Made by a program: the position numbers and the translations under genes
Notes under the pieces: model-generated
The model's input: the letters and a program-made list of their open reading frames with translations, nothing else
Told to the model about the DNA's origin: nothing
Databases searched by the model: none
Part shown: in pieces, positions 25,665 through 61,381 of the stretch
Layout of the letters: each line of letters begins with the position of its first letter
Position numbering within the stretch: the first letter of the stretch is position 1
NCBI GenBank assembly: GCA_032718475.1
Contig: JAUCBJ010000735.1
Span: 1 to 64,000 of the forward strand
DNA from: Nemertoderma westbladi
Taxonomy: Eukaryota; Animalia; Xenacoelomorpha
Length of the DNA: 64,000 nt
Direction of reading: 5' to 3'

Positions 25665-25863
25665 ACCGGTACCGGTATTACAAGTTGAGTTAGTTATAAA
25701 TTAAAGTACGATTATAAGTATAAGGGTAATATAATATTCATTAATTTAAATAATTACGCCTATACTGTATACCTGTATACTGTATCTGTGTATACTGTAT
25801 ACAGCATACAGCTATAGCAGTACAGCAGTACACAGGAGGTATAGCCTACAGGCAGACAGGCCT

Positions 25864-26430: not shown

Positions 26431-27606
26431 TGTTCGCGCTTTCAGACCTTTAGCAGTTTAACCTGCCAAATTAGGATGTCTTCTAGATAATAGATAGTCT
26501 TTAGCCTACGACAAATATTTGATACACTACATTAGCCGAAACCAGTCTATGCGCGATCATTCACCCGCTGGATATACCCGGGAGACTGGATTCGGAAGCC
26601 TAACCGTATTGCGGGATAGGTCTACTGTATTATTCGACTGATCTTAATATATATAATCTCTGACAATATTATTCACTTTCGGGAAATATTAACAGTTCCT
26701 TTAGGACGTGGCGCTTTAAATATATAAACAGAGTTATGACTTAAACTAGACACAACGGGATGGCTATAGATTCACGTATATGGCGCATTCTTTAGGAGAT
26801 GCTTCGTTATCAATCACAGTCATACACAATACTGCACAATGCTGCACACTAATCTGCCGACCTTCACTAATTTTAGTCACATATAAGGAGAACAACAGAC
26901 AATACGTGTAGGGCCTATAAAATAGCATTAGATTCACTTCAAACCACTTAATGTAAGTCGCAATCGTTTGTATGTATCCGGTCTCTCTAACCTTTAGTAT
27001 ATCAAGAAGATTGGGGTGTCTGATTGTTTATCAGTATTCCAAATATAATATTTCATCAACAAATATAATGAATAACCGACAGCAAAAGCAGTAAAGTTAA
27101 GGTATAAATGATTATGAGTGACTGAGTGAGATATGATCAGTTATGATTAGTTGAGTGAGTGAGATAACGGATATACGCTCTATAATTAAGCCTACTAATG
27201 TTGATGCTAAAGACTGAAACACGGAGGTTCCACGCTGGTGTTGTAGGCTGTGGAAAAATCACATACTGACTCACTTCCCTAGTTTCTATCTACCATCTCT
27301 AACACAGAGGCAAAAAACGCTCTGATTGGTCAACCGAACAAAGAGAGAACAAAGAACAAAGAGATGTTCTACGTGGCAATATCAGCTGTTAGCCGTGGTC
27401 ATGGTAGCGACACTGTTTCAAGAGGATCCGGCGTATTGCATCATAGAATTGCTAATCATGTCCGCTAAAGTACACATACAGAAGAAATGGGTTTTATGTC
27501 CTCTAAAACAACAATAGAGTAAGGACACGGCCTTTTATGCCTGTTAAACCAACTACAGAGTACTTTACGGGGAAAATAACCAGCTAATTACGCAAAAGCC
27601 TTTACA
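26431..27606 (-). repeat. BEL1 3' LTR
   Basis: Near-identical to 43855-45029. Confidence 0.97.
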
Positions 27607-27632
27607 CCGCTCCCAGAAAATGGGATTTAAGT

Positions 27633-28889
27633 CTATAAAATATAACAAATCACAGTTTCTAAAATATAAAAATACTCTAAACAGTTGTCTTTCTTACGTG
27701 GACGGCGTTTACGCAGTTTTTTGAGGCTAGCAAGAGTCCTTTTCTCTTTGGGGCGAGCCACTTTACTAGGAGGGCTGTAACTCCTGGGTGAAGGGTGCAA
27801 TACAATTGCATCAGAAGGTTTAGGATTACGATCGGTGTATCCGCCGGTTGAGGTACCTGGTTGATCGATATCAACTTCAGTGGAGCGAGGTCTAACGGCC
27901 TTTAGGGCGCGTCTTAGGACAGCAGCTCCTACGGGTCCTTGACGGGTCATCTGGACAACGGCGGTAGGCGGACCGTGAGTGGTGAGAAACTTCCTTGGTT
28001 TAATGGTTCTTTCCAGCTCGCGTTCTCGGGCTCGATATTCGTAGGGCCGTCGAGATACTTCCTGTAACTCAGGGTGCGAGTTGATAAATAAATCGCCATA
28101 CTCAGGGTCTTGACGGATGTAATTGATCAAATGGTATGAAGTAATATCGTTAGGATTGACGTTCCTAAGGTATTTTCGAACAAATTTGGTGGAAATACAC
28201 TCACCAACACGCTTCATTAGTTCGTAACTCGGTGTGCGTCTTTTTTGTTCCACAGACGCGAATAAATAAGGATGGAACGCGTAAACTCCCTCGTAAGAGC
28301 GTCCAGGGTAGTAGCGATGGCGGGACTCACAATGTAAATCCGCGTTCGCTTCCCAAGCTTGGATGTAGCGCAGGGTAATCATCTTATCTACGCTCTCTAA
28401 ATCACGATTAAAGGGGCAATTATAACTGGCATGTCCTTTAAGTTGACAGTGGTGGCATTGAGTCATAAATTGGGGGCAGACTGCAAAAATATGAGAGTTA
28501 TTAAGTCTGCAATACGCACAATATATCTCCATCATCGGTTGTTCGTGGAAATAGGAGCAGGGTACGTCTGAGTCCATGGGGGTGAAATGGTCTCTCGATG
28601 CGCATAATTGACAACGTTTTCGAGAAACATAGTTAGCGTGTCGATAATCGTATGCGGTGAGACATTGTGGACCTTGATACCACTCTAAGACGTAGTCGTT
28701 ATCGCTGCTCCGGGGCGCTGTAGGCTGGATCGCTTCAGATTCTAAGCATATTGGTTCGTCTTCAATTGCATAACTGAGGTAGGTGCGACTGTCTCCGCAA
28801 GCGGACCCACTGTCTGAACTTCCATGACAGAATAACCTGTGGGTATTCGGGGTCTTTGTATAACAGATGAATGTAAGTTCTGTATACAA
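27633..28889 (-). CDS. BEL1 accessory ORF B, C-terminal part: Cys/His zinc knuckles and basic tail (frameshifted from 28742-30205)
   Basis: CQLCASRDH, CAYCRLNNSHIFAVC, CHHCQLKGHASYNC and WEANADLH align by eye with the C-half of the single 1077-aa ORF in BEL2. Confidence 0.8.
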   Translation of the reverse strand: MYTELTFICYTKTPNTHRLFCHGSSDSGSACGDSRTYLSYAIEDEPICLESEAIQPTAPRSSDNDYVLEWYQGPQCLTAYDYRHANYVSRKRCQLCASRDHFTPMDSDVPCSYFHEQPMMEIYCAYCRLNNSHIFAVCPQFMTQCHHCQLKGHASYNCPFNRDLESVDKMITLRYIQAWEANADLHCESRHRYYPGRSYEGVYAFHPYLFASVEQKRRTPSYELMKRVGECISTKFVRKYLRNVNPNDITSYHLINYIRQDPEYGDLFINSHPELQEVSRRPYEYRARERELERTIKPRKFLTTHGPPTAVVQMTRQGPVGAAVLRRALKAVRPRSTEVDIDQPGTSTGGYTDRNPKPSDAIVLHPSPRSYSPPSKVARPKEKRTLASLKKLRKRRPRKKDNCLEYFYILETVICYIL

Positions 28890-30205
28890 ACGTCCTGAAA
28901 GAGAGCAAATCCCGCGCTGTTTAGCTTCTCTGCAGCTGAGTCTCTTAGGCTGAGTTTGGTCAGAGCGCGGTCCTTGAACTGACTATCAACGTTACGGAAC
29001 GGAGTCAGAAAGCGCCTGAAACATTCGAAGCGGATGAATTTATTGTGTTCATCTAACTTGGCGAGTTTGGTTCCAAGTATTAATGGATGGGCGCGTATGG
29101 TATGACTGCACACATCGGCTAGCCAACCGGCAAGTGCTGCGTTTTCAAATATCGTGTATATAGCTAAGGAGGGACGAAGTGGAACACTCATAAAGCTATA
29201 CACGGCGCCAGGCGCGGTCAATGGTCCATCAAAGTATAAACGAGAATAATGATCTCCATATACTTGTTGGTAATTTATAGGATTTCCAACCTTGAAATTC
29301 CATCCGTATTCTTGAAAGGCAAGATGTCCGATGGAGGTTCGTTGTACTTTAGTAATGCCGCTGGGTGTATTGGCATACATAGTGCGGAAGAAACCTCGGC
29401 CTTCTGCCCAGGGAGCAATCAGCTGAGTATCAACGAAAGGGTATGGAATGTTCTCCATATTCCGAAAGTCGTTTTGTAGATCTCCATAAACAGCTGAGCC
29501 GATTTTAAGGATTCTTTCGTTAAACAACATCTCGAGCACGGGTTGGGGTAACATCGATCCATCGATACCCATGGCCGGTTTGCGCTCGGTGTCGGTGACG
29601 TAACGCTGCGCGAGTTCGAATTGTCCATGTCGGAGTTTCTTTTGGGTCTCAGTAAGAGTTTCAAAAGAATAATCAATCACATCGGAACACGCTCGAGTAA
29701 ATACGTGGGTAGAACCAGCGAGTCCTCGTATGTGTATCATCCGCGTAGTTCCCAGTTCTCCAACCGGAACGCTACCTTTGTTGTCGTAGGTGACAACTCC
29801 ATACATCTCGATAACGTTAAGAGTCTCATTCCACTCTTTAGTGGCGTTTTCGAGAGTCATTCCCACAGGATGCCACAAGGTAGCGCATTCGCTAGCATTA
29901 GGTAGGTCTCTATACTTTAAATATTGTGTGGTATATGTTTCCACATCTCCATATCGTTGTATTCTTTCCTCCTCGAATAACACGTCAAGATTCCAGTGTA
30001 CTAAACGAGTTTTGATGAATCCATCAAGATTATACGGAGGTATTGTTTCTTTCTCTATTCTGGAAACATTGTATGGTTTTCGAAATGAGTTTATTTTAAC
30101 CAACTGATCCAGATGTTTATGCAGTTGTTCGAGTTCGACAAGATCGAGAGGATTTATGAGTGGCAAAAACCTCAGACTATGTGTAGGATCTTCTGGTTTT
30201 ACCAT
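28742..30205 (-). CDS. BEL1 accessory ORF B, N-terminal part: DEDDy (WRN/EXD/Mut-7-like) 3'-5' exonuclease-like domain
   Basis: VVTYDNKG (ExoI, E replaced by K), LPQPVLEMLFNERILKIGSAVYGDL..DF (ExoII), FVDTQLIA, SIGHLA, IYTIFEN (ExoIII-like). Confidence 0.72.
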   Translation of the reverse strand: MVKPEDPTHSLRFLPLINPLDLVELEQLHKHLDQLVKINSFRKPYNVSRIEKETIPPYNLDGFIKTRLVHWNLDVLFEEERIQRYGDVETYTTQYLKYRDLPNASECATLWHPVGMTLENATKEWNETLNVIEMYGVVTYDNKGSVPVGELGTTRMIHIRGLAGSTHVFTRACSDVIDYSFETLTETQKKLRHGQFELAQRYVTDTERKPAMGIDGSMLPQPVLEMLFNERILKIGSAVYGDLQNDFRNMENIPYPFVDTQLIAPWAEGRGFFRTMYANTPSGITKVQRTSIGHLAFQEYGWNFKVGNPINYQQVYGDHYSRLYFDGPLTAPGAVYSFMSVPLRPSLAIYTIFENAALAGWLADVCSHTIRAHPLILGTKLAKLDEHNKFIRFECFRRFLTPFRNVDSQFKDRALTKLSLRDSAAEKLNSAGFALFQDVCIQNLHSSVIQRPRIPTGYSVMEVQTVGPLAETVAPTSVMQLKTNQYA

Positions 30206-30226
30206 GTAATATTGTGTTAGGTTAAC

Positions 30227-31936
30227 TTAATAAGGGTGATCTTTGATCCCATAAAACGAGTCCAGTAAAGGTCTAGCGCGTATGTTTACATCGTGTACCA
30301 TGCGACGGACAAGATCCACTCTATTGTCCGGAGGTTCAACGAGTATACCATCGACACGAGCGGCTTCGATGGGCGGACGCTGTAACATGGGAGCGTCAGC
30401 GATAAGCTCTCTAGATCTTAGGTTGATATCAACCGGTTGGGGTTGTATCGTCGCAAAGAGTTTGTCTCCGAAATGGGGGACCATCGAGGGATGAAGGATG
30501 GTTTTAGAGTAGAGATCCGTCATAAGGATTTGAGCTTCGGGTTGAGCTAAAGCTGCTTCTTCTCTCTCATCTAGTTCTATATGTCTCTCCTCGAGCTGAT
30601 TTTCCTCCGCTTGTTGTTGTAGACGCTCATCTAGGAACTCTTGTAAAGAGTAGGTTCGTCCACGTTCGATGTCCTCTTCGAGATTTTGTATTTCTCTATC
30701 GAACTGAGGTAAAGCTAATTCCTTCACCGCTTGGACTTGTTGTTGCAATTTACGTTTCTCCAAACAATCGTAAGTTCCTTTTCCGATTTTCTGCCGAATA
30801 GCATCTAACGCGTTTCGTACGACGCTCTCTTCGACTTCCGTAACGGGTTGTATCGAGGTGAAGCCGGGACGGTTGTGTGGGTTAAACGGCGATATTAGAT
30901 GACCGCGTCCCAATCCAGCTAGGTAGGGTTGGCGAATATCTAGTGAGCCTACTACCGGAGTACCACCGATCAACTGTTCGGGTAACACTAGATCTTTGAA
31001 CAGTGAGTACAGTTTGGGAGGATCCGTGATACTATTAGGATCAAGAGTCTGAGGTCTAACCGAGGAATGAGGAGGTCTGACCGAGTATTCCGGAACTCTG
31101 ATCATTGGTATGTTCAAGGATCGTTTGAGTCGAGCGACCGTAGGGGATACTTCGAACAGGTTTCGCTCAAAACTCCCATAAGTATATCGTGTAAAACTGT
31201 GTTTAGCGCAACGTCTCCGCGGATGTTTATGTCTTTCCGTTTGCTGATTGGGTCTAGGACATTCGTCGCAGTAGTACCAAAGACGCACGTCCTGCAAGGG
31301 AAACGCGGGTGATCGTTCTCCAGTTTTACAATATTCCTCCATCTGTTCGAAGCTATCTGGGACGACAGGTAGCGGTCGATCGGCGGTAAGATACATCATA
31401 GTGAAATAGAGTCGTTTGAGTTCTATCATAGGATCATGATGTATACCTTGGGGATATCGAGTTTCGAGATTTTGTTGACTGGCAATATTGAGATATGTCT
31501 CTCTCAGGAATTCCAGATAATCGTTGAAGTCGCTGCGTTTATCCGGCTCTTCAACGTCTTCCCTTTCGAGTTTGTTTCGAATAGAGTTCTCGTGTTCTAT
31601 TCTCGGTTTATCGTTCCGACTCCGCTGGGTATGATATTTAAATAAAACCATTTCCCTTTCGGTGTCTACATCGTCCGTATCGTGTAAATCGATAGGATGG
31701 CCAGTAGTTAAGAAGTCCATATACGTACCATTACGATGCGTATAGCGAGCGGTGAACTTTCTATAATCCAATTCACGCGTAAGTTGCTCCTGGGACATTG
31801 GCGGTTCGATATAACGACCATCATCTTCCGTAGTAGTTGGACCAGCGTCGCCGCGTATCAAGCTATCGACAAACGCTTGTAAAGGTAGAGTATATCGCTC
31901 CCTGATGCCAAGATCATCTTCTATCAACTCAGTCAT
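30227..31936 (-). CDS. BEL1 accessory ORF A, unknown protein with a CxxC...CxxH motif and acidic coiled coil
   Basis: Intact 569-aa ORF. DPMIELKRLYFTMMYLTADRPLP...YYCDEC...RCAKH is homologous to BEL2 ORF 55948-56766. Confidence 0.8.
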   Translation of the reverse strand: MTELIEDDLGIRERYTLPLQAFVDSLIRGDAGPTTTEDDGRYIEPPMSQEQLTRELDYRKFTARYTHRNGTYMDFLTTGHPIDLHDTDDVDTEREMVLFKYHTQRSRNDKPRIEHENSIRNKLEREDVEEPDKRSDFNDYLEFLRETYLNIASQQNLETRYPQGIHHDPMIELKRLYFTMMYLTADRPLPVVPDSFEQMEEYCKTGERSPAFPLQDVRLWYYCDECPRPNQQTERHKHPRRRCAKHSFTRYTYGSFERNLFEVSPTVARLKRSLNIPMIRVPEYSVRPPHSSVRPQTLDPNSITDPPKLYSLFKDLVLPEQLIGGTPVVGSLDIRQPYLAGLGRGHLISPFNPHNRPGFTSIQPVTEVEESVVRNALDAIRQKIGKGTYDCLEKRKLQQQVQAVKELALPQFDREIQNLEEDIERGRTYSLQEFLDERLQQQAEENQLEERHIELDEREEAALAQPEAQILMTDLYSKTILHPSMVPHFGDKLFATIQPQPVDINLRSRELIADAPMLQRPPIEAARVDGILVEPPDNRVDLVRRMVHDVNIRARPLLDSFYGIKDHPY

Positions 31937-33568: not shown

Positions 33569-36130
33569 CTAAGCTGGGGAGTCCCTAGATGTTTGTTGGA
33601 TTAGGGAGGTGGCCGTGGGAAGAGTATCTTGCCTCCCATAGTTTCCGGAGAGTTCTCTGTCTCTTTCCAGTAAACATAAGCGACCAACTGGGCGATTGAG
33701 CTGCTGTGTCTCGAAGACAATTCCCGGTTTCTTGAAGTTACGTCGCATGACGACGAGTTCTACCGATCGCACCAAACCGTCATCCGAGATGTGAGTCTCG
33801 ATGATACGACCTGTCTGCCACCGCTTACGTGGAAGATCTACATCCACAATAAGAACCATGTCTCCAGCGCTGACGTTTTCTTGCTGCGCAAACCACTTAG
33901 TTCGAAGTTGTAGCGTGGGCAGATAATGTTTTTCGAAATGGTCAGCGAAACGACGGGATAACAACTGCATGAGTTGCCAAGTTTGCCGACAGTATTCGTC
34001 TCCGTCTGTGATTTCCGATTGTGGTAACATGGCTGCAGGTTTCTTCAGTAGGAAGTGCGCGGGTGTTAGCGCTTCCAGGGAATCGGGACTCGATGAGACT
34101 GGCATAAGCGGTCTCTCGTTGAGATAGGCGGCGATTTCCTCCATTAACGTCCGCAAAAGTTCGTCGGTGAGATACGCGCGGCAAGGCACTATAAAGTGAA
34201 ATGCTGTCTTCACACTTCTTATTAATCTCTCCCAACTTCCTCCCCACCAAGGGGCGTCAGCGGCGTTGAAGGTCCAGCTAGACGCTGTTACTCGTAGCTG
34301 ATCGTCCACCTGTCTTTGGTTCCAATCTTTGACGTAAGCTTTGATTTCATTGTTGGCACCAATGAAGTTAGTTCCCTTATCAGATCTCATCGTGTTACTA
34401 GTGCCAAAGCGAGCGATCTGTCGTCGTAAGCTTAATAGAAAGCTGTTGGTAGATAAATCGTTCACCATATCGAGATGGATAGCTCTACAAGTCATACAAA
34501 CAAAGATGACACACCATCTCTTGACTATAGTCCTAGCACGATATACTTCAATAGGGCCAAATAAATCCACACCGGTATTAGTAAAGGGTGGTTCATAGAA
34601 GCTTACTCGTTCCCTAGGTAATTCTGCCTCTCGCAGTGTTAAAGGCCTACTGAATGCTTTCCTACAGGGTATGCAGTTCCTAAGAACTTGGTTCAGAGCT
34701 CTACGGGGTTTATAAAAATAATAGCGAGTTCGAATTTCGCTAAGAACTCGTTCCCTACCAGCATGATAAAGTTTGCTGTGAACGTCTACAATCATCTTGA
34801 CTTGTATTTCAAGATTTCTAATGAGTATGGGAAACTTAGTGTCAAAGGATAGTGGAGCATTCGTTAATCTTCCTCCAACACGTATCAACCCATCTATCAT
34901 TGTGCTAGAGAAACGATCCCTTAAGCGCATCCGTGGATTTCTCAACAACAGGAAATACTTATCGGAATCTTCATAGCATTGCAGGAGTCTCAGCATCTGC
35001 TTGTTGGTTTCTTCATGCTCCTGATAACTGATCTTCTCCTTCAGAAACCTGTCGGATATCTTATATTTGGGAAGATCTTTAATAACATGGACCTGCACTG
35101 ATGTTATTGGAGCGGTATCACCTTTGGCCTTCATCCCGGAGTAGTAATGGTGAAAACATCTCTTTAAATATGTAACGGCCTTACAGAGCCGATTCCAGGA
35201 ACTGTAGTGATGTATCGCTCTCTGCAGAAGAGGTGAGAGTCCTTGCGAGACGTCTGGTATTCCAGATTTCCAATCCTTATCACGGATTTCCACAACAAGT
35301 TTATTTGTGGCTGTGGATTTCTGATCCAAAGCGTCGTCTCCGGAAGTATGTAGTACAGACAGATCTACCATAGGTTTGAATAACTTCGATTTACTCGCCC
35401 AAGTTTTAGGTTTGACTTTCTCCGCTCCCTTGGCCTGTCTAATCTCTGTGGTAGTAAGATGAGGAGGCCATTCTTCTTCTTCTTTGTAGAGGAAGTCTGG
35501 TCCACCTAGCCAGTCTGGAGTATCTACCAGTTCTTGTGGAGTTGCTCCCCTGGAGGCGATATCTGCTGGATTAATCGTTCCGGGGCAATGTCTCCATTGA
35601 TCCATCGTTGTGCGACTGAGTATAATGGCTACTCTGTTGGTAACGAAGACGCTGAACTGACAGACTTCATTGGTTATATACTCCAACACGAGTAAAGCGT
35701 CGGTCCAATAGACAGTTTTCTCCAGTGGATAGTCGATCTGTTCTGTTACATTCCGGCCGATGGCTGTAGCGTATAGAGCCGCCTTTAACTCCGCTCGAGG
35801 AACTTTCAACTTGTTGTTTATCAATGCCTTAGAAGTAACCAAGGCGACTTTGATTCCGTCCGGAGTTTCCACCCTTAGGTAGGCTACTATACCTATTCCC
35901 ATATCGCTGGCGTCTCCAAACACATGGAGTTGATAGGAATACGTAGGGAGAACATGACCAAAATATGAACGGGAAATTATAAAGTTCTCGATGGCTGGTA
36001 GAGAATCTTCCAATTTCATCCACTTCTTTAATAATTCTCCCTTAAGTGGATCGTCCCATGAGTGGTTTTCAAGCCACATTTGTTGTACTAAACTCCGAGC
36101 AATCAATATAACTGGGCTAATAAATCCCAA
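33569..36130 (-). CDS. BEL1 pol: RNase H and integrase
   Basis: LHVFGDAS, VPRAEL, WRHCPGTINPADIASRG, TGVDLFGP, CRAIHLD, SDKGTNF, PWWGGSWERLIRSVK, DDGLVRSV. Confidence 0.95.
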   Translation of the reverse strand: MGFISPVILIARSLVQQMWLENHSWDDPLKGELLKKWMKLEDSLPAIENFIISRSYFGHVLPTYSYQLHVFGDASDMGIGIVAYLRVETPDGIKVALVTSKALINNKLKVPRAELKAALYATAIGRNVTEQIDYPLEKTVYWTDALLVLEYITNEVCQFSVFVTNRVAIILSRTTMDQWRHCPGTINPADIASRGATPQELVDTPDWLGGPDFLYKEEEEWPPHLTTTEIRQAKGAEKVKPKTWASKSKLFKPMVDLSVLHTSGDDALDQKSTATNKLVVEIRDKDWKSGIPDVSQGLSPLLQRAIHHYSSWNRLCKAVTYLKRCFHHYYSGMKAKGDTAPITSVQVHVIKDLPKYKISDRFLKEKISYQEHEETNKQMLRLLQCYEDSDKYFLLLRNPRMRLRDRFSSTMIDGLIRVGGRLTNAPLSFDTKFPILIRNLEIQVKMIVDVHSKLYHAGRERVLSEIRTRYYFYKPRRALNQVLRNCIPCRKAFSRPLTLREAELPRERVSFYEPPFTNTGVDLFGPIEVYRARTIVKRWCVIFVCMTCRAIHLDMVNDLSTNSFLLSLRRQIARFGTSNTMRSDKGTNFIGANNEIKAYVKDWNQRQVDDQLRVTASSWTFNAADAPWWGGSWERLIRSVKTAFHFIVPCRAYLTDELLRTLMEEIAAYLNERPLMPVSSSPDSLEALTPAHFLLKKPAAMLPQSEITDGDEYCRQTWQLMQLLSRRFADHFEKHYLPTLQLRTKWFAQQENVSAGDMVLIVDVDLPRKRWQTGRIIETHISDDGLVRSVELVVMRRNFKKPGIVFETQQLNRPVGRLCLLERDRELSGNYGRQDTLPTATSLIQQTSRDSPA

Positions 36131-36185
36131 TGGATCGAAATAAGTGCTCAGGATACTTAAACAAATCCGTTTAGTCCGAACTGGA

Positions 36186-37304
36186 TTATCTCGCTGTTTT
36201 AGTTAACAGGATATCTCTTTCTGTGTCCCATTTCAAACCAAGGGTCTTAGTTTCTGGGAGATCATCTTTTATTAGATCCAGATCTTTCGCTCCACGATCT
36301 TCTATCGGGATCAACTCCAGAAACTCACGGGAGTTACTGGTGAATTTAGTTAATCGAATTCCACCTCTTTTTAAGCACTCTACCGTTCCTTTAGCGACAT
36401 CAATGGCTTCTTCGACTGATGGAAGGGACTTTAGATTGTCGTCCATGTATATATCCCTCTTGATGTTGTCAATCACCTCTTTAGAGAAGGCGTCTCGGTT
36501 GTCATCCGCAGTGGTGCGCACCACGGAACCGGCGTTTGAAGGGCTTGAGATTATCCCAAAAGCCTGGATAGTCATCCAGTACTCCACCGGTTTCTGGTTG
36601 AGGTCTCCTTCAGGCCACCACAGAAATCGTAGGCTGTCTCGATCCCTATCCAGCGCCTTGACTTGTAAGAACATGCCTTCTATATCTGAGGCGAAAGCAA
36701 TTGAATATTGTCTTAATCTTAAAAGTATTCCCAACAAGGATTGGAGTAAGTTGGGTCCGGGTAACAATTCAGAATTAAGGGATTGGCCCATATAGAGGGC
36801 GGAGCCGTCAAACACCACTCGTACTTCATGGGGTTTACCGGGTTTGGGAACATAATGGTGAGTTAAATAATACGTTCTCTCAGTTATAGGTGTTTCTTCC
36901 GGTACTAGCTCTGCATATCCCTTGCTAATAAATTTCTCCAGCTGTGTTTGATACATTTCTTTAGCTGAAGAATTAGCCGTAAGGCGTCGATGGAGTTGCG
37001 CGATTCTTTTTTCCACCAAGGGTCTGTTATTGATGAACTTCGGTTCTCTCTTGCGGAAAGGTAGACCGACTTCATACCTACCTTGATCTTTGAGGAAACG
37101 TGTAGTTGTCTCTTGGATCTGCTTGGCCCTTTCCTCTTCCACCGACAAGGCTTTATCGTAGGAATTGGGCTCTACCGCCTCTTGCGTAAAGAATCGTACG
37201 GCATGTTCATCTCGAGTCTTGGCATTGCAACGCTCAATGACGTCATTTAACTCGTCGTTATAAGCTTCTCGTTCAGATGGATAGAGAAGTTGACATAAGT
37301 TCAC
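36186..37304 (-). CDS. BEL1 pol: reverse transcriptase
   Basis: GRYEVGLPF, YYLTHH, VRVVFDGS, SLNSELLPGPNL, SDIEGMFLQV, YMDD, KTLGLKWD. Confidence 0.95.
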   Translation of the reverse strand: MNLCQLLYPSEREAYNDELNDVIERCNAKTRDEHAVRFFTQEAVEPNSYDKALSVEEERAKQIQETTTRFLKDQGRYEVGLPFRKREPKFINNRPLVEKRIAQLHRRLTANSSAKEMYQTQLEKFISKGYAELVPEETPITERTYYLTHHYVPKPGKPHEVRVVFDGSALYMGQSLNSELLPGPNLLQSLLGILLRLRQYSIAFASDIEGMFLQVKALDRDRDSLRFLWWPEGDLNQKPVEYWMTIQAFGIISSPSNAGSVVRTTADDNRDAFSKEVIDNIKRDIYMDDNLKSLPSVEEAIDVAKGTVECLKRGGIRLTKFTSNSREFLELIPIEDRGAKDLDLIKDDLPETKTLGLKWDTERDILLTKTAR

Positions 37305-37403
37305 TTGGTTTTGCCAAGCCTCGTTTTCCTTAAGGAGATCGATGGTATTCTCCTCATCAAAAAGCTGGTGAACGTCGTCGTTATCTGAGGAGTATGGAGT
37401 TCC

Positions 37404-38202
37404 CTAAGTTAAATCGTCTCCCTCACTAGCATCATCTTCCCATTCACTCACCTGGCAGACGCTCTCTTGCGGTAGTCTTTCTCTGAGTGTTCTACGGGAA
37501 GGGCCAGTAAAGTACCAACCCACTCTAGTTCTTCCCGCATAAGCTTGTAGTGGTTGCGGTTGAGCGGGCCGTTTCTCCAATGTCTCGAGCGCTTCATGCG
37601 CGTTTTGACCGATGAGTATTTGTACTCCAGGGTAATCGGTATTGAATCTAGGTATTTCTAGCTGCTGGGTGAAATCGTCCTCATCCCAGTTATAAGGTTC
37701 CACTTGGGTGTTAGCGAAGTTCTTTATCGCCACCATTTTTACTGACCTTATACTATGTTCTCCTAGTTCATCCTGGGGGGGTGGACAACGCACCTACATA
37801 ATAATCCGCTATTACTGTAGATTTCCAAACCTGCATAATTCCTGACATGTTTAGCTTAGTTCGGAACTTGGGTTGTCCAGCAAAGATGTCTTCGGCTAGT
37901 TCTTTGTCGATGAATGTTCCTGTACTACCGGAGTCAAGGAGGGCGTTCACTACATAACTCCTTTTAGGTCCGTGGACCCTTACCTGTACTACAGGAAATT
38001 CTCGGATTCCTACATTGGAAGGTGGCGCTTTCCACGATGGTTGTCGATCAGAAGTAGTTAGGGTGAGGTCGCTGTCTGTGTCTTTTTCATACGTAAGTGC
38101 TCGATACACTGCGGTATTTATCATATAACAGGATTCACCTTCGTCGGAGAATTCATCTGTATAGAATCCTTCCATCTCAGAGCTTTGGTCAGTGTCGTTC
38201 AC
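37404..38202 (-). pseudogene. BEL1 aspartic protease (frameshifted)
   Basis: ALLDSGSTGTFI; ILIGQN...TRVGWYFTGP in the next frame. Confidence 0.88.
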
Positions 38203-38253
38203 ATCACTGAATTGGACATGTAGTTCGGAATCACTTACCTGACTCGGACTATT

Positions 38254-40101
38254 TCACTCGAATTCAGTATGCAACAAGATATGATGTTTCGTACCGCACT
38301 TTGCACACCTTGTGTCGGAGTAACAGGTTCGCCGTTGGTGTCCTTGTCTGAGGCAATTATAACACAACCGCTTATCCCACATGACTTCCCGTCTCTCCGC
38401 TAATGATTTCTTCAGGAATTCATCACACATATTCAAACGGTGAGTCCCGTCACATAGCGCACATTTCGGTTTGATGTTACTTACCTTATTTTGAATTACA
38501 TTGTGCACACTCGTTCTTTCTTCGGGCTTTCTCACCTGAATTCTCTTGGGAGACGTAGGAGGAGTTTTTCCTACCTGTTCTCTCCTGTCATTGGTTCGAG
38601 ACTTGAATTTACTCACCTGTTCTTTAGGCGTTTTATTGACATAATAAGATCTTTCAGTGTCTTTCCCGCTATCCTCTCCTTGAGAAGTCTGGCTTTCGCC
38701 GTCGTCTGTATAACACACTGGTGTTACCTTTCTCCTAGAGACGGGTTTCTCACTTACCTTGTTTTCCGGTGTCTTCTCTCTGGACTGCTTTATGAGCTGT
38801 AATTTCACTTCGCCATCCAAGAATGACATGAGATCAGCCATGGTAGGGTCTCGTTGTTGTTGTTCCATCATATATAACACTTTCTTGTCCCAGCGTGTAC
38901 CTACTCCACCCTTCGGTAAAGTAGAAGCCACTGCTCTAATAACCATAGCACTCTGATATTCATGAGACTTACCTAGCCAATCTAATTGTCTGCAGATCTC
39001 CTGAATCTCATCGGAAAACTCTATTATCCCACTGCTAATAAACTTTCGGGGCGCTACCAACTTTGCATACAAATACCCAGCTATGTTATTCCTATTACCA
39101 TACCTGATGTTTAGTGTATCCCAAACTTGTCTTAATCCGTCTGGATGTCCAATAAACTTTAACGCCATTAACTTGGGAGATCCTTCCAAGCACTCGATGA
39201 GGAATCTAAGTTTCTCTCCATTAGATAGCACAGAGTTCTGTATGTTATCCTTGTAATATTCATTAAAAGGTAACCATTTCATCTCATCTCCATTGAACTT
39301 GACTATCTCTCCCACCTTTACCGCTTGGCGGGCTTCGGTTCTAGCCATTTGACGCGTAAAACTTTCTTGGGCCATCGTGTTATTTAATATCGAGTTATCG
39401 GTATATAAATTTCTCGGATTATGATCAGGTCTATAGGGAATATCATTATCAACAGGTCTATAATTACCCTTAATAGGGTTCACTATAGGAGTTTCTACTT
39501 CGCTAGCAGTATATATGCGTGTAGGCTCCACACCTTGCGCATGAGATACTTCAGACCTAACAGGTTGACACATTGTTACAGGGGGTGGTGGTATACCCTT
39601 TTGTGTATTTACTAATTTATCGCGTTCTAGCGCGATACTTTGCTGCACTTCTTGCAACTCTAACCTACTTTCTCTTACTGTGCCCTTGAATTGCTGAACG
39701 GTCTCCTGCATCTGCCCGAGCAGGAGATCCATCCCCCGTCGTCTCTCATCCACCCACTCGACCGCCGAAGCGGGAGCCGCCAACGTTGTAGCGGGCCGAC
39801 GAGGGACAACGGGCGACAAATCATTAATATTTCGCTCGGAGTCCAGGACATGAACATTTTCAAGGGTGGTTCTGTGGGGCACAGATAGATTAGTGCTGTG
39901 CAGAGGGAATTTAGAGGTAGGTTCAGGGAGTACAGGTGTCTCTACCACCGAAGGGGTGGCTTTGGGAACAGGCCTAATTATTTCAGGCTCATCTACTATA
40001 GTAGGGAGTCTTTCTATTTTAATTATTTGGTCTGTGGGTTCTGTACTACCTAAGTTTGTGTTATTTAGTTGCCTTCTAACAGCTGGAGGCAAATCAGGCA
40101 A
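38254..40101 (-). CDS. BEL1 Gag (capsid-like domain and three Cys/His knuckles)
   Basis: FNGDEMKWLPF...EKLRFLIECLEG...LNIRYG; CALCDGTHRLNMC, CYNCLRQGHQRRTC, CAKCGTKHHILLH. Confidence 0.93.
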   Translation of the reverse strand: MPDLPPAVRRQLNNTNLGSTEPTDQIIKIERLPTIVDEPEIIRPVPKATPSVVETPVLPEPTSKFPLHSTNLSVPHRTTLENVHVLDSERNINDLSPVVPRRPATTLAAPASAVEWVDERRRGMDLLLGQMQETVQQFKGTVRESRLELQEVQQSIALERDKLVNTQKGIPPPPVTMCQPVRSEVSHAQGVEPTRIYTASEVETPIVNPIKGNYRPVDNDIPYRPDHNPRNLYTDNSILNNTMAQESFTRQMARTEARQAVKVGEIVKFNGDEMKWLPFNEYYKDNIQNSVLSNGEKLRFLIECLEGSPKLMALKFIGHPDGLRQVWDTLNIRYGNRNNIAGYLYAKLVAPRKFISSGIIEFSDEIQEICRQLDWLGKSHEYQSAMVIRAVASTLPKGGVGTRWDKKVLYMMEQQQRDPTMADLMSFLDGEVKLQLIKQSREKTPENKVSEKPVSRRKVTPVCYTDDGESQTSQGEDSGKDTERSYYVNKTPKEQVSKFKSRTNDRREQVGKTPPTSPKRIQVRKPEERTSVHNVIQNKVSNIKPKCALCDGTHRLNMCDEFLKKSLAERREVMWDKRLCYNCLRQGHQRRTCYSDTRCAKCGTKHHILLHTEFE

Positions 40102-40133
40102 TTTCTGATGGTGGGATGTTCTTCTACGTCTTC

Positions 40134-41606
40134 TTAGACGAGATCTATTTCCTTTGCCTTCAGTATCGATGGTATCGCCTTCCTCAGATGATGTATATCC
40201 CTGTCTTTTGGGAGTAGATCGATCGATGGGAGTATCATCTGCATATTACTAGCTGTTAACTGTTTATTTATGCAGTCTTGATTCTCCTGAATGTTTTCCA
40301 ATTCTAATTGGGTGATTTCTTCAGCCGCTCTCCGTTCTGCTTCTGCCACTGCCTCTGCCGCCTTTCTTTCCGCCTCTGCCGCTGCTACTGCCGCTTTTCT
40401 TTCTGCTTCTGCAGCTGCCACTGCTGCTGCCTTTCTGTCTTCTATACGTTTTTTCTTCACTTGTTCTTCTTGGACTCTAGTGATGCGGAGTTGTTCATCA
40501 AATTTAGCTTGGTTCGCAGCTCTCATATCCACATCGATGGCGTCCAACACACGCTGGGTTCCTTCACTATTAGGGCTGAGTCCATCTAACCTTCTCCTCA
40601 ACTCTTCATCTCCTAAAAAACGTTGATAGTCTGACAGATAGATGTCAATGGCATCCCTCTTATGCGGTTTCTCTGCCGTCGCTTCACTTTCCACTTGGGA
40701 AAAAGTAGCGTCTGTTGATTCTCCATGGGTTGAGCGCTCCTCCAGCTGAGCTTTCCACTGAGCCGTTCCTTGAACCTGGAGACTCACCCGTTGAAACCAA
40801 GTCTTTACGGCAACTTGCAACGACGTGTCTTGTCTTCTTTTAGAAGCCTCCTCAAAGGCCGATAAGATTAGCCTGATTCGTAAAATTCTTTCTCTAACTT
40901 GATAAAGCAGCTGTACCTGCTCTTGAGGTCCTTGGGGTTGTTGAAACAATTGTTCTTTTAATCGCTCCATAGAGCTGAAGAATCCCTGTGCGTATCCGGC
41001 TGCGGACCTCTTCCACACAGCTGGATCGATGGTTTCCTTGGTTACTCCCATCCTGTGTATATCTTCCCAGGCAGCTTCTGATAAATCAAACGGGAGTCCG
41101 GGTCTGGGGAAGTTCCATTGCGACTCGACAATAGACTTCAGTTCTTCCCTTGTGTATCCCGCATAACTATCTTTAGTCGATCGCTTACTTCTCGCCCAAT
41201 CGATCTGGTGTTCTTCCACCGCAATCAATAACCTAGTGAGTACGGCTGCAGGAAGGATGAGAAGGGGATCCGAATAAACCGCATCCGTCATCTTTGCTCC
41301 GCGCTCGGGTGTCAGCTCTACAGTATCCTCACTACTGGAGCTGTCGGGCCATTGAGAAATAAGTTCTTGGCTCGCGGGTTGTTGTTGTTCCGCTGCTTCC
41401 TGGTCCCGCTTGACCTGAGCTCTAGTGCCTATGACAGACCTACGGTATTGGACCAGCCTAGGTTCTGATATTACTACTGGGGGAATGATCTTTCTTACAG
41501 TAGGAGGTGAGTTGAACTTCGGTCTAACTCGTTCCACACTCCTGTCTGGGTCACATATGGTTGTATCTAGGAGACTGTCTGACAGATTTTGCTTTGTGGC
41601 AGACAT
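40134..41606 (-). CDS. BEL1 Gag N-terminal extension (coiled coil, AAVAAAEAERK repeats), probably once fused to gag
   Basis: 490-aa ORF directly upstream of gag on the same strand inside the LTRs. Confidence 0.7.
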   Translation of the reverse strand: MSATKQNLSDSLLDTTICDPDRSVERVRPKFNSPPTVRKIIPPVVISEPRLVQYRRSVIGTRAQVKRDQEAAEQQQPASQELISQWPDSSSSEDTVELTPERGAKMTDAVYSDPLLILPAAVLTRLLIAVEEHQIDWARSKRSTKDSYAGYTREELKSIVESQWNFPRPGLPFDLSEAAWEDIHRMGVTKETIDPAVWKRSAAGYAQGFFSSMERLKEQLFQQPQGPQEQVQLLYQVRERILRIRLILSAFEEASKRRQDTSLQVAVKTWFQRVSLQVQGTAQWKAQLEERSTHGESTDATFSQVESEATAEKPHKRDAIDIYLSDYQRFLGDEELRRRLDGLSPNSEGTQRVLDAIDVDMRAANQAKFDEQLRITRVQEEQVKKKRIEDRKAAAVAAAEAERKAAVAAAEAERKAAEAVAEAERRAAEEITQLELENIQENQDCINKQLTASNMQMILPSIDLLPKDRDIHHLRKAIPSILKAKEIDLV

Positions 41607-41734
41607 ATTGGTTTGTACAGTTGAATGCCTACTGCTATATTACAGTTTAAGCAAGTCTAGTAATTCAGTATCACTGTTAGCCTAGTAATTAATTACTGAT
41701 ACTGCTACTTAGTGTAGCGTGATATATGTATAAT

Positions 41735-43838: not shown

Positions 43839-43854
43839 AGCGTATATCCGTTAT
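43839..43854 (-). promoter_or_regulatory. Atypical primer-binding site complementary to the element's own LTR
   Basis: Sense ATAACGGATATACGCT abuts the 5' LTR end and is the exact reverse complement of sense LTR sequence at 44602-44587. No TGG tRNA-type PBS is present. Confidence 0.7.
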
Positions 43855-45029
43855 TGTTCGCGCTTTCAGACCTTTAGCAGTTTAACCTGCCAAATTAGGA
43901 TGTCTTCTAGATAATAGATAGTCTTTAGCCTACGACAAATATTTGATACACTACATTAGCCGAAACCAGTCTATGCGCGATCATTCACCCGCTGGATATA
44001 CCCGGGAGACTGGATTCGGAAGCCTAACCGTATTGCGGGATAGGTCTACTGTATTATTCGACTGATCTTAATATATATAATCTCTGACAATATTATTCAC
44101 TTTCGGGAAATATTAACAGTTCCTTTAGGACGTGGCGCTTTAAATATATAAACAGAGTTATGACTTAAACTAGACACAACGGGATGGCTATAGATTCACG
44201 TATATGGCGCATTCTTTAGGAGATGCTTCGTTATCAATCACAGTCATACACAATACTGCACAATGCTGCACACTAATCTGCCGACCTTCACTAATTTTAG
44301 TCACATATAAGGAGAACAACAGACAATACGTGTAGGGCCTATAAAATAGCATTAGATTCACTTCAAACCACTTAATGTAAGTCGCAATCGTTATATGTAT
44401 CCGGTCTCTCTAACCTTTAGTATATCAAGAAGATTGGGGTGTCTGATTGTTTATCAGTATTCCAAATATAATATTTCATCAACAAATATAATGAATAACC
44501 GACAGCAAAAGCAGTAAAGTTAAGGTATAAATGATTATGAGTGACTGAGTGAGATATGATCAGTTATGATTAGTTGAGTGAGTGAGATAACGGATATACG
44601 CTCTATAATTAAGCCTACTAATGTTGATGCTAAAGACTGAAACACGGAGGTTCCACGCCGGTGTTGTAGGCTGTGGAAAAATCACATACTGACTCACTTC
44701 CCTAGTTTCTATCTACCATCTCTAACACAGAGGCAAAAAACGCTCTGATTGGTCGACCGAACAAAGAGAGAACAAAGAACAAAGAGATGTTCTACGTGGC
44801 AATATCAGCTGTTAGCCGTCGTCATGGTAGCGACACTGTTTCAAGAGGATCCGGCGTATTGCGTCATAGAATTGCTAATCATGTCCGCTAAAGTACACAT
44901 ACAGAAGAAATGGCTTTTATGTCCTCTAAAACAACAATACAGTAAGGACACGGCCTTTTATGCCTGTTAAACCAACTACAGAGTACTTTACGGGGAAAAT
45001 AACCGGCTAATTACGCAAAAGCCTTTACA
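43855..45029 (-). repeat. BEL1 5' LTR
   Basis: Near-identical to 26431-27606; followed by TSD gacta. Confidence 0.97.
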
Positions 45030-50078: not shown

Positions 50079-51565
50079 TGTAAGGTCCAGTAGTATACCG
50101 CTTACCGGATCCTAGTAACGATGTATCTTACCGTAAGATCTAGTAATGTATACGGGCTCGTACAGTATCTGACAACAAATCCCAGTCCAGGATATCTAAA
50201 CAAACAGATACAATACACAAACGACTACTGGCGAGGAACAGAGCCTAGTGTCTATTCTATGTACGTGAGCGGGTCTAATGCCTACGAAACTAGACAAAAG
50301 GATACCTGTCCTCTAACCGGTGAGGCAGATGTACAGTTACAGTAACAGACCAAACTCACGGGAAAACAATCCCCGCGCAGCGAATCCTAACTATCACTGA
50401 CAGTCCTAAATACCGTAACTTGCCGCGGTGTGATTTATATGGTTTATATACGAGCTAGTGGGTTAACAGACCTAGCGTAACAACACTGATTCAGTCCTAA
50501 ATCAGTCGAAAGAGGGTCGTGCCTAATGTAACAATACTGCTGAACAGGAAACAACAGTTTAATAACGAAAATGAAATGCTCTCTCTTGCCGTAACTAAAT
50601 ATCAGATCCTAATTTACAAATACAGATAATTTCTACCTAAAGTAATATATAGTACGCTATAACTAGTAGAACTCTAAGGGCGAATATGTTTTAGGGCGTG
50701 TGTGTGTGGGTGTGTTACAAATAAAACAATTTCATGTATCTCCTTTCACTAGGTTTTAGTGATTTTCTGACCGAAATGATACCGTGCGCTAGCTACTAAA
50801 ATAAACTAGTCGCGTTTTGTAGAACTTTATACTCACAAATGACGTCAAAGCTCTCTTCTTCCTATCCACAACTCAATGGGCAACCACGGTGTTAGTAACT
50901 ACACCCGTGATCGGCACTAATACCAGATTCTGGTTGTAAGATAAGAAATAGGGGTTAATCGCTACCGTACGTTAGCTGATCTGGTATACTAATTTAATTC
51001 TAGAACTTTGTTGCCGCGGTAGTTAGCAGCAATACCTATCAGTACGTGGCAAGGCGCGGTAGGATATTAATAAAACCTCCCTAGGCCAAGCAGTGTGCCG
51101 GTAGCAGAAATACTCCTTGCCTGATCAAATAACTAACTCCAGACAGGGGGGGGGGGGGGGGGGTACTAATGTACGTTCTACAAAGCGAACCGGTACCAAA
51201 CAGTCAGTACTACGAATCACTAAATTATGGAACATATGCTGTCCGTACCTATGTACTCGCGTACTGACGAATGGCAATAGTTCGCACCTGTGAGAAGTAC
51301 AGGTTAACCCAGGGGTTCGCAGGACTGACAAAGGGGGGGGGGGGGGGGGGGGGTTCCTGTCTAAATATAATTATTTGATCCTAAATTTTGCGGCGTCCAG
51401 GACGGCGTCACGCTTACCCTGATCTATAGGTCTTACGGCGGGCAAGGGCGTCGAACAAAGTCTTACCTTTCTCACAAAGCGGGCGCTGCATGGCAAGTTG
51501 AGCATTTCGAAGGGCAAAGGGGGTGCGCGGTCAAATCCAAAGTGGGCGCTAGCGTGTTGTGGACA
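50079..51565 (-). repeat. Putative BEL2 3' LTR
   Basis: Sense PPT-like gcaggggaaaga directly before TGTCCAC (51565), and ...CCTTACA at 50079. The partner LTR is not in the window. Confidence 0.5.
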
Positions 51566-52117
51566 TCTTTCCCCTGCGTTGCTGACGGCCTAACGGTCTA
51601 GGCTGCCATCTTCCCGATGTTTGGCTGTCCCAAAGTTGGACCAAAAGAAAACATGTTCAGGAATTTGCAGTATATTTACAGTTTAGCAAAGGATTTATCA
51701 AACAGATTTAACAAAGTTTCAACAAGAAACCAAATAAACTAATAACAATGATATAAGAAGATACTAGTGAAGTATAAGGTGTAAGGGTCAAAATGATAAG
51801 GTGATAACCGAAGGCAAACCGGCCTTTTTATACTAAATATCGCACATGGAAACCAAACAGAATTTTCCACAGCTTCACATTTGAGCAATAAAGTGTTTCG
51901 TGCCCTATGATTGGCCCAGCTCATCGTTCAACGCAGTCCGGCCCTGACACTAAATCTGGGACATGGAATCCTAACAGAATTTTCCATGGCCTCACATTTG
52001 AGCAATAAGATATTTTATGCCCCATGATTGGCCTGGCTCATCGTTCGCTACGTTGTACGCTTCTCATTGGTCCACCAATTAGCACCAAACGAAAATAAAT
52101 GGCCCCAAAATACAAAT

Positions 52118-59986: not shown

Positions 59987-60034
59987 CCCCCGTGACGCGA
60001 TGTCAGCTGGGTTCAGCTTCCCTGGACAGTGACG

Positions 60035-61363: not shown

Positions 61364-61381
61364 CCTAATGGCGTATCCCTT

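What the first reader, a model, noticed from the sequence alone, without database searches (positions are those of the whole stretch)
27633..31936. Two divergent BEL/Pao retrotransposons share a conserved accessory cassette encoding a DEDDy 3'-5' exonuclease-like and zinc-knuckle protein
Seen: in the slot where env would sit, BEL1 (27633-31936) and BEL2 (52737-56766) each carry ORF A followed closely by ORF B. They align by eye as proteins despite no obvious DNA similarity: YDNKG/YDNEG; LPQPVLEMLFNERILKIGSAVYGDL..DF / LPKAVRDVVLDKSIVKIGSGVRDDL..DF; FVDT/YVDT; HPLILG/HPLCLG; FRRFLTPF/FQRFLQHF; three Cys/His knuckles; WEANADLH/WEDLADEH. Known: the pattern follows the WRN/EXD1/EXD2/Mut-7/Egalitarian DEDDy fold, several members of which act in small-RNA silencing or RNA transport. 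I recall DEDDy ORFs reported in rotifer LTR elements, but not this two-gene, knuckle-fused cassette in BEL/Pao. Inference: a long-retained module for counter-silencing, RNA localisation or primer maturation. ExoIII D appears as E in both and ExoI E as K in BEL1, so it may be a pseudo-nuclease.
Basis: partly seen in the sequence, partly recalled or inferred. Interest (0 to 1): 0.9.

Follow-up and report, generated by a model that had tools for sequence, protein, structure and literature searches.

The report
Giant BEL retrotransposons carry exonuclease gene
Two distantly related BEL/Pao jumping genes carry, where an envelope gene would sit, what is likely one large extra gene for a protein resembling RNA-trimming enzymes with three zinc knuckles, which would most likely trim the element's own RNA, and one element shows a sequence match predicted to let it prime its own copying without a tRNA.

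Summary
The cassette is real. Both BEL/Pao elements carry homologous coding DNA between pol and the 3' end (27% identity over 456 aa, E 2e-34). In BEL1 it lies inside an 18.6-kb element with matching LTRs and a target-site duplication. A DEDDy exonuclease domain is supported by profile matching to RNase D (probability 90%, E 1.6e-6), an aligned motif register and an outside homologue with the same exonuclease-plus-three-knuckle layout. Two corrections. It is probably one ORF3 of about 1,400 codons, not two genes: the stop between BEL1 ORFs A and B is absent from most family depth. The ExoI lysine is private to this copy, so the pseudo-nuclease argument rests only on a conserved ExoIII D-to-E. 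Family variation falls mostly on third codon positions (24 of 30 sites). New: BEL1 lacks a tRNA-type primer site; the 16 nt after its 5' LTR perfectly complement an LTR segment, a Tf1-like self-priming signature. DEDDy ORF3s are published for rotifer Gypsy elements; I found none for BEL. This scan earlier noted Gypsy elements with Rrp6-like cargo, but no BEL case. Function is untested.

The parts
26431..27606 (-). BEL1 3' LTR (1176 bp, TG...CA), preceded by a short purine tract at 27607-27614
   Evidence: 99.2% identical to 43855-45029; ends and flanks
43855..45029 (-). BEL1 5' LTR; whole element 26431-45029 = 18,599 bp; 5-bp target-site duplication GACTA on both sides
43839..43854 (-). Primer-binding position of BEL1: 16 nt directly after the 5' LTR, no TGG start, perfect complement of an LTR segment (predicted self-priming site)
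   Evidence: first TGG only at leader position 56
44587..44602 (-). LTR nt 428-443, complementary to the primer-binding position (same segment in the 3' LTR at 27164-27179); candidate self-primer
   Evidence: longest such match among 16,218 start points; at most 11 nt in 2000 shuffles
33569..41639 (-). BEL1 gag-pol, broken by stops and frame breaks in this copy
   Evidence: Pfam DUF1759, Peptidase_A17, Integrase_H2C2, DUF5641; frames
30227..31936 (-). BEL1 ORF3, front part (A1): conserved helical and Cys-Cys-Cys-His segment of unknown family, then a long linker; ends at a stop (30227-30229) that most family depth does not share
   Evidence: 34% over 103 aa to A2; alignment; reads
28742..30226 (-). 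BEL1 ORF3, middle part (B1): DEDDy exonuclease domain about 28961-29866; ExoI 29774-29788, ExoII 29477-29506, ExoIII 29144-29158
   Evidence: RNase D HMM E 4e-7; TIGR01388 E 0.0067; register
27633..28982 (-). BEL1 ORF3, rear part (C1, other frame; homology starts near 28760): three CCHC knuckles at 28416-28613 and a conserved domain after them
   Evidence: 24% over 218 aa to B2, E 9e-16
55948..56766 (-). BEL2 ORF3, front part (A2), overlapping B2 out of frame
52737..56093 (-). BEL2 ORF3, main part (B2, 1118 aa open): exonuclease domain about 54594-55472 (ExoI 55380-55394, ExoII 55116-55145, ExoIII 54792-54806), three CCHC knuckles at 54021-54200, conserved domain after them, low-complexity tail with a 13-nt array
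57495..64000 (-). BEL2 gag-pol (runs off the window; broken by in-frame stops and a frame break)
   Evidence: 35-57% identity to the BEL1 RT/integrase pieces
50083..51566 (-). Probable BEL2 3' LTR (TG...CA ends, purine tract just inside); partner LTR is outside the window
   Evidence: read from sequence only; inferred

Best explanation
[quoted passage not shown] Proposed steps. (1) ORF3 is made apart from gag-pol (inferred from its place 0.7-1.6 kb behind pol). (2) The knuckles bind single-stranded RNA (inferred from weak likeness to LIN28, Air2 and retroviral NC). (3) The exonuclease removes unpaired 3' nucleotides until it meets a duplex (inferred from RNase D-type enzymes, recalled). (4) In BEL1 the obvious substrate is a self-primer: LTR nt 428-443 can pair with the 16 nt after the 5' LTR (shown in sequence), and any RNA left 3' of nt 443 would have to be removed before reverse transcription starts (inferred). 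Confidence by layer: DEDDy-plus-knuckle cargo of BEL elements about 0.9; single ORF about 0.8; catalytically active about 0.55; own-RNA trimming as the main job about 0.35-0.4.
For: Fold: hhalign of the three family members against 27 RNase D domains gave probability 90%, E 1.6e-6, score 47 against at most 20 in 60 column shuffles. The only PDB hit of the family profile was EXD2 (E 0.68). The top NCBIfam hit of B1 was RNase D (E 0.0067). The three best Atlas hits of P0001 were PF01612 clusters, the first also carrying zf-CCHC (score 0.86, a lead only). Active site: in a 26-row alignment the ExoI D, ExoII D and ExoIII Y are invariant, the ExoI E is missing only in this BEL1 copy, and the last D column is E in all 3 family members; the BEL1 exception is not shared by 99.9-100% of family depth. 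One gene: the A1/B1 stop is not shared by 74-93% of depth; one X4 contig and one X5 contig differ in length from this copy across the B1/C1 break in a way that fits one frame; BEL2 and P0001 have exonuclease and knuckles in one frame. Selection: 24 of 30 listed variant sites are third positions, p 2e-7; 17 of 19 among the polymorphic ones. Self-priming; Tf1 mechanism from PMC7175516 passages. No transmembrane segment outside a repeat array, so not env-like.
Against: No activity, expression or substrate was observed. Pfam misses the domain in both window proteins, and B2 alone scores only 1.7 bits on the RNase D HMM. The family did not match 20 stand-alone bacterial exonucleases better than shuffles (score 20 against 21.9). 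The ExoI register is weak on its own (P 0.03). The unguided fold failed (pLDDT 30), and the good model was guided by 23 bacterial exonuclease rows, so its matches are not independent. The last catalytic D is E. Tf1 makes its self-primer with RNase H alone, so an exonuclease is not required in principle. The self-priming signature is seen in one element only, since the BEL2 primer site is outside the window, and the transcription start is unknown. Deletion forms that lack the exonuclease region exist in the family (joints 28763-31569 and 27846-30575). The single-ORF state of BEL2 was not checked with reads.
Confidence: 0.4

Rival explanations
1. Counter-silencing nuclease: the protein is active but acts on host small RNAs or their precursors (piRNA/siRNA 3' ends), weakening silencing of the element.
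For: Nibbler/Mut-7 and EXD1, both small-RNA pathway proteins (recalled), are among the structural neighbours of the guided model (Aedes Nibbler Z 12.2, rmsd 3.5, 185 aligned; Exd1 Z 10.8, rmsd 4.5, 176 aligned). The BEL1 family looks abundant: 80,787 contigs of run X1 were laid on it. Rodriguez et al. raise a silencing role for rotifer DEDDy ORF3s (PMC5408684 Discussion).
Against: The top structural rows are tied within 1 Z unit and include bacterial dinucleases and RNase D, so no subfamily can be named. No small-RNA data were available. The rotifer study found no clear link to copy number.
Confidence: 0.25
2. Non-catalytic RNA adaptor: like Egalitarian or EXD1, the domain binds RNA without cutting and, with the knuckles, routes the genomic RNA (export, transport to germ cells, packaging).
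For: ExoIII D is E in all 3 family members and the domain has two large insertions. BEL2 holds 8 places with a 20-nt hairpin motif, none by chance in 100 shuffles, which could be a binding signal. Egalitarian is a structural neighbour (Z 10.2, rmsd 4.5, 193 aligned). A retrotransposon accessory protein for RNA export is known (CERV, PMC10309623 abstract and passages).
Against: Three acidic positions, the ExoIII tyrosine and an acidic fourth residue are kept at about 25% identity, which a dead site would not need. The hairpin motif is absent from BEL1. The ExoI lysine is private to one copy.
Confidence: 0.23
3. The likeness to DEDDy enzymes is partial or coincidental (only the ExoII region), or the cargo is a passenger with no role for the element.
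For: Significant single-sequence scores cover only about 46 residues around ExoII. No Pfam hit. The unguided fold failed.
Against: The profile match spans ExoII to ExoIII, the homologue P0001 has a plain D-x-E ExoI and was matched to PF01612 clusters without any guide, and third-position bias shows selection on the frame.
Confidence: 0.1

Closest known systems
DEDDy-type ORF3 of bdelloid rotifer Juno and Vesta LTR retrotransposons and Athena/Terminon elements (Rodriguez et al. 2017, PMC5408684; passages and Discussion read)
   Same: An RNase D-like DEDDy exonuclease ORF downstream of pol in the env position, no transmembrane segment, one altered acidic residue, function untested.
   Different: Those hosts are Juno and Vesta lineages (Ty3/gypsy-type, recalled), not BEL/Pao. 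Their motif is DEED; here it is D-E-D-E with the change in ExoIII. The passages place zinc knuckles in gag and pol, not ORF3. Here the domain sits in a roughly 1,400-codon ORF with three CCHC knuckles, and shows purifying selection, whereas the rotifer ORF3s tested showed no departure from neutrality.
Cellular DEDDy exonucleases: RNase D, EXD2, Nibbler/Mut-7, WRN exonuclease, Rrp6, EXD1, Egalitarian (Pfam PF01612 group)
   Same: Order and spacing of ExoI D-x-E, ExoII D, the following DT motif and ExoIII Y.
   Different: 10-19% identity to the bacterial rows; last D is E; two insertions of about 45 and 28 residues in the BEL proteins; three CCHC knuckles behind the domain instead of HRDC or other partner domains. 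No single subfamily can be named.
Self-priming LTR retrotransposons (Tf1/Sushi and Tcn1 among Gypsy; TAR, Houba, Osr-1 among Copia; PMC7175516 and PMC6317226 passages)
   Same: The sequence directly after the 5' LTR is complementary to a segment of the element's own LTR and not to a tRNA 3' end.
   Different: 16 nt rather than the 11 of Tf1; a BEL/Pao host, which those passages do not list; transcription start unknown; an accessory exonuclease is present.
BEL/Pao elements in general (de la Chaux and Wagner 2011, PMC3118150; passages read)
   Same: Gag with three knuckles, PR-RT-RH-IN order, BEL-specific Pfam families, LTRs up to 1.2 kb.
   Different: Usual length 4.2-10 kb and a third gene only as env in a few; BEL1 is 18.6 kb, above the 15-kb upper bound that survey cites, and its third gene is not env. 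The word exonuclease does not occur in that paper's main text.

Membership tests
BEL/Pao LTR retrotransposon (Belpaoviridae) | BEL-specific gag-pol domains in the order gag, PR, RT, RH, IN | tested here: met
   BEL1: DUF1759 E 6e-11, Peptidase_A17 E 2e-36, DUF5641 E 8e-20. BEL2: DUF1759 E 3e-10 and 35-57% identity to BEL1 RT/integrase pieces.
BEL/Pao LTR retrotransposon (Belpaoviridae) | Two LTRs with TG...CA ends and a target-site duplication enclosing the cassette | tested here: met
   BEL1 only. For BEL2 the 5' LTR is outside the window.
BEL/Pao LTR retrotransposon (Belpaoviridae) | Placement of RT in a BEL/Pao clade by phylogeny | not tested
   No reference BEL sequences were available from the tools.
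DEDDy 3'-5' exonucleases (DnaQ-like, PF01612) | Profile-level homology to the family | tested here: met
   hhalign probability 90%, E 1.6e-6 against RNase D; HMM E 4e-7 for B1 among 8 targets. Below Pfam's cut-off: no PF01612 hit in window proteins, E 0.2 in P0001.
DEDDy 3'-5' exonucleases (DnaQ-like, PF01612) | ExoI D-x-E and ExoII D | tested here: met
   Present in BEL2 and P0001; in BEL1 the second ExoI residue is K, which 99.9-100% of family depth does not share. The ExoI register is weak alone.
DEDDy 3'-5' exonucleases (DnaQ-like, PF01612) | ExoIII Y-x-x-x-D | tested here: not met
   Y-x-x-x-E in 3 of 3 family members against D in 23 of 23 bacterial rows. So it is filed as a DEDDy-derived variant, not a canonical member.
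DEDDy 3'-5' exonucleases (DnaQ-like, PF01612) | RNase H-like/DnaQ fold | tested here: inconclusive
   Unguided model failed. The guided model reached pLDDT 68.6 and all 50 VIA rows are DEDD-type domains, best Z 12.3, rmsd 4.6, 179 aligned, but the guide rows make this circular.
DEDDy 3'-5' exonucleases (DnaQ-like, PF01612) | Two-metal 3'-5' exonuclease activity | not testable with these tools
   Needs an assay.
Rotifer Juno/Vesta DEDDy ORF3 pool | DEED motif and clustering with rotifer ORF3s | tested here: inconclusive
   The motif differs (against PMC5408684 passage); clustering could not be tested without the sequences.
env (fusion glycoprotein) ORF3 of BEL/Pao | Transmembrane anchor | tested here: not met
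   Highest 19-residue hydropathy 0.6-1.2 in A1, B1, C1 and A2; the 2.05 peak in B2 is the translated 13-nt array.
Self-priming LTR retrotransposons (Tf1 type) | Primer-binding position complementary to the element's own LTR, not to a tRNA 3' end | tested here: met
   16 of 16 nt at offset 0 in BEL1; no TGG start. Complementarity to an internal tRNA fragment was not tested.
Self-priming LTR retrotransposons (Tf1 type) | The complementary segment lies at or near the 5' end of the transcript | not testable with these tools
   Only contigs were served, no raw RNA reads; no TATA match within 30 nt upstream.

The most novel reading that the evidence does not exclude
A lineage of giant BEL/Pao elements has given up tRNA priming and primes itself from its own LTR RNA, and it carries a dedicated knuckle-guided 3'-5' exonuclease, with a D-E-D-E active site, that cuts the self-primer to length. 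This would be the first assigned function for an exonuclease third gene in any LTR retrotransposon and a second route to self-priming besides the RNase H cut of Tf1.
Probability: 0.2. Interest if true: 0.85.

Novelty: new variant of a known kind. Interest (0 to 1): 0.63.

Why it matters
Exonuclease third genes in LTR elements have been known since 2017 from rotifers, with no shown function. This case extends them to a second LTR superfamily, shows selection on the frame, and adds an RNA-binding module. It also offers a concrete substrate: a predicted self-primer duplex in the same element. That makes an open question, what these captured nucleases do, testable with one natural protein domain and short synthetic RNAs. 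An 18.6-kb BEL element also lies above the length bound cited in a standard survey, so such elements may be under-counted.

Tried and rejected
Homologue searches: three word-based protein searches gave nothing beyond P0001 itself. The full HMMER scan of 1.84 billion representatives gave 2 hits; P0002 is a tandem-repeat protein matching a 43-column stretch and was dropped. Locus scans found no relative in metagenome contigs, viral contigs or prokaryote genomes. Phage and plasmid tblastn gave only chance hits. The genomic context of P0001 could not be read, so it is not shown to be in a BEL element. No whole genome is held, so no second full copy, no dN/dS on copies and no RT-versus-exonuclease tree. 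The Atlas gave no result for the window's own proteins. The unguided AlphaFold model failed. The front part (A1/A2) matched no family: Pfam none, PHROGs one weak unknown family at E 0.046, PDB only weak compositional hits at E 0.01-0.12. The ORF3 knuckles are not a recent copy of the element's Gag knuckles: best blastp 26 bits, and the last Gag knuckle ends in H while the ORF3 ones end in C. No slippery heptamer was found in either ORF3 frame overlap, so programmed frameshifting has no support. Expression: no RNA holder listed; run X5 is only guessed to be RNA and is no evidence either way. Literature: ten searches found no report of an exonuclease ORF or of self-priming in BEL/Pao. The Terminon paper was not held, no supplements were read, and Repbase/Dfam annotations and subscription journals are not covered, so absence from print is not established.

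Full report
Setting. The window holds two BEL/Pao elements on the minus strand. BEL1 is complete: LTRs at 26431-27606 and 43855-45029 are 99.2% identical, have TG...CA ends and are flanked by the duplication GACTA, giving 18,599 bp. Its gag-pol carries DUF1759, Peptidase_A17 and DUF5641 and is broken by stops and frame breaks. BEL2 runs off the right end; its gag has DUF1759 and its RT and integrase pieces are 35-57% identical to those of BEL1. A probable 3' LTR at about 50083-51566 is read from sequence only. A survey gives 4.2-10 kb as usual for BEL/Pao and cites 15 kb as upper bound (PMC3118150 passages). No whole genome is held. The host is taken to be an animal because BEL/Pao elements are described as metazoan-only (PMC3601003 passage).

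The observation. Between pol and the 3' end both elements have long frames: A1 (30227-31969), B1 (28742-30226) and C1 (27633-28982) in BEL1; A2 (55948-56787) and B2 (52737-56093) in BEL2. B1 and B2 share 27% over 456 aa (E 2e-34), C1 and B2 24% over 218 aa (E 9e-16), A1 and A2 34% over 103 aa (E 1e-11). One hundred shuffles per pair reached at most 24.6 bits against 125, 67 and 51. There is no DNA similarity. The divergence is like that of gag (26-39%), which fits inheritance with the element but does not prove it.

One gene or two. The breaks differ: BEL1 has an in-frame stop at 30227-30229 and a frame break near 28760-28837; BEL2 has one frame break in 55948-56093. Contigs of four public runs cover the BEL1 cassette in all 30 bins, so it belongs to a multi-copy family. 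Within the stop codon, 93%, 93%, 74% and 85% of the laid depth differ from this copy and read a sense codon. Across the B1/C1 break, one X4 contig and one X5 contig (record 25) differ in length in a way that fits one frame; runs X1 and X3 showed no such row at the 60% threshold, so this point is weaker. BEL2 and the homologue have exonuclease and knuckles in one frame. The simplest reading is one ORF3 of about 1,435 codons in BEL1 and 1,343 in BEL2. The BEL2 break was not checked with reads. Deletion forms lacking the exonuclease region also exist.

Selection. One search showed 40 of 162 variant sites, chosen by read support. Thirty lie in the A1/B1 frame; I left out 10 at or near the B1/C1 overlap. 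Of the 30, 24 are third codon positions (p 2e-7); among the 19 that are polymorphic in run X1, 17 are (p 6e-7). This is a coarse test, not dN/dS, but it shows selection on the frame.

The domain. Pfam finds no exonuclease in the window proteins. A full HMMER scan with the two-sequence profile found one real homologue, P0001 (E 3.8e-6), a 648-aa protein from an ENA contig whose context is unknown. It has the same layout: exonuclease-like domain, three CCHC knuckles and the same following domain. P0001 has a weak PF01612 hit (E 0.2), and its three best Atlas neighbours are PF01612 clusters, the first also with zf-CCHC (0.86, a lead only). B1 hits RNase D in NCBIfam (E 0.0067), and the three-member profile hits only EXD2 in the PDB (E 0.68). 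I gathered 27 RNase D domains and 20 stand-alone bacterial exonucleases. The RNase D HMM scored B1 at E 4e-7, P0001 at 5e-4 and B2 at 0.08 among 8 targets, all on the ExoII region. Profile-profile comparison gave probability 90%, E 1.6e-6, score 47 against at most 20 in 60 shuffles; against the stand-alone set it was no better than shuffles. In a 26-row alignment the ExoI D, ExoII D and ExoIII Y are invariant, the ExoI E fails only in this BEL1 copy, and the last D is E in all three family members. The BEL1 lysine codon is not shared by 99.9-100% of depth in four runs, so it is a private change. An unguided fold failed. A model guided by 23 bacterial rows reached pLDDT 68.6; its matches were EXD2 by Foldseek (E 4e-4) and DEDD-type domains throughout by VIA-align, with dinucleases, Nibbler and RNase D tied at Z 11.5-12.3. 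These fold matches are not independent evidence. The knuckles resemble LIN28, Air2 and retroviral NC weakly (best E 9e-4) and are not a recent copy of the Gag knuckles. The front part has no family match. There is no transmembrane segment outside a repeat array.

A new lead on function. BEL1 has no tRNA-type primer site: the leader does not start with TGG. Its first 16 nt are the perfect complement of LTR nt 428-443. This is the longest such match among 16,218 start points in the internal region (next unrelated 12 or less), and 2000 LTR shuffles gave at most 11. This is the signature of self-priming. In Tf1 the first 11 nt of the RNA pair with the primer site and RNase H frees the primer (PMC7175516 passage). 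Self-priming is listed for Tf1/Sushi, Tcn1, TAR, Houba and Osr-1 (PMC6317226 passages); BEL is not named there. A 3'-5' trimmer that stops at a duplex would suit such a primer. That link is inference from one element, the transcription start is unknown, and Tf1 needs no such enzyme.

Mechanism. I commit to an active, knuckle-guided trimmer of the element's own RNA ends (0.4). Rivals are a counter-silencing nuclease (0.25), a non-catalytic RNA adaptor (0.23) and partial or idle likeness (0.1). The adaptor reading gains from eight places in BEL2 with a 20-nt hairpin motif, but BEL1 has none.

Comparison with what is known. DEDDy ORF3s are described for rotifer Juno and Vesta elements and Terminons, with a DEED motif and no shown function (PMC5408684 passages and Discussion; restated in PMC6431247 and PMC5718144 passages). 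Known BEL third genes are env-like (PMC3118150 and PMC13524379 passages). CERV shows that an LTR accessory protein can export RNA (PMC10309623 abstract and passages). Ten searches found no BEL exonuclease and no BEL self-priming. The Terminon paper was not held, and supplements, which may list longer BEL elements or rotifer sequences, were not read. Earlier notes of this scan describe Gypsy elements with Rrp6-like or dead DEDDh cargo, and none held all of the words BEL, exonuclease and knuckle or env; I did not check those notes. Functions of Nibbler, EXD1, Egalitarian, RNase D, LIN28 and Air2 are recalled, not from a call.

Verdict. A real, selected accessory gene: a new variant of a known kind. 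The BEL host, the knuckle fusion, the D-E-D-E site, the size and the self-priming signature together make it worth following. Interest 0.63.

Noticed in passing
window 52813, 53014, 54465, 56011, 57122, 61752, 61830, 61908 (and a weaker one near 59054): A 20-nt near-palindromic hairpin motif is dispersed through BEL2 only, in pol, in ORF3, at the A2/B2 frame break and once in non-coding DNA; most coding copies read as the same short peptide. No shuffle gave a match; 7 of 8 fold as the same hairpin, but only 3 better than shuffles. It may be a packaging or transport signal.
   Followed up: partly
window 25020-25700 and 5298-6098 (minus strand): Two halves of a host-like amidophosphoribosyltransferase (GATase and PRTase domains) lie about 19 kb apart with Gypsy-type fragments and tandem arrays between them.
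   Followed up: no
window 40134-41639: BEL1 has a 501-codon frame upstream of and overlapping the gag frame, with an alanine-rich repeat and no family match; it may be a long gag N-terminus cut off by a frame break.
   Followed up: no
window 50021-50083 and 47730-48043: Pieces like the BEL1 LTR: 63 bp of its start in opposite orientation directly beside the probable BEL2 3' LTR end, and a diverged piece of its other end. BEL2 may have inserted into a BEL1-family LTR.
   Followed up: no
window 59331-59755 and 52837-53031: BEL2 has an in-frame 12-nt repeat expansion inside the integrase region and a 13-nt tandem array near the end of ORF3.
   Followed up: no
window 27846-30575, 28033-30579, 28763-31569 (joints in laid contigs): Several internal deletion forms of the BEL1 family remove the exonuclease region; one is seen in runs of two different organism labels.
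   Followed up: no
window 7559-about 10700 and 21992-23738: Long arrays of a 50-nt unit with 55/56-nt variants occur twice, near Gypsy-type fragments.
   Followed up: no
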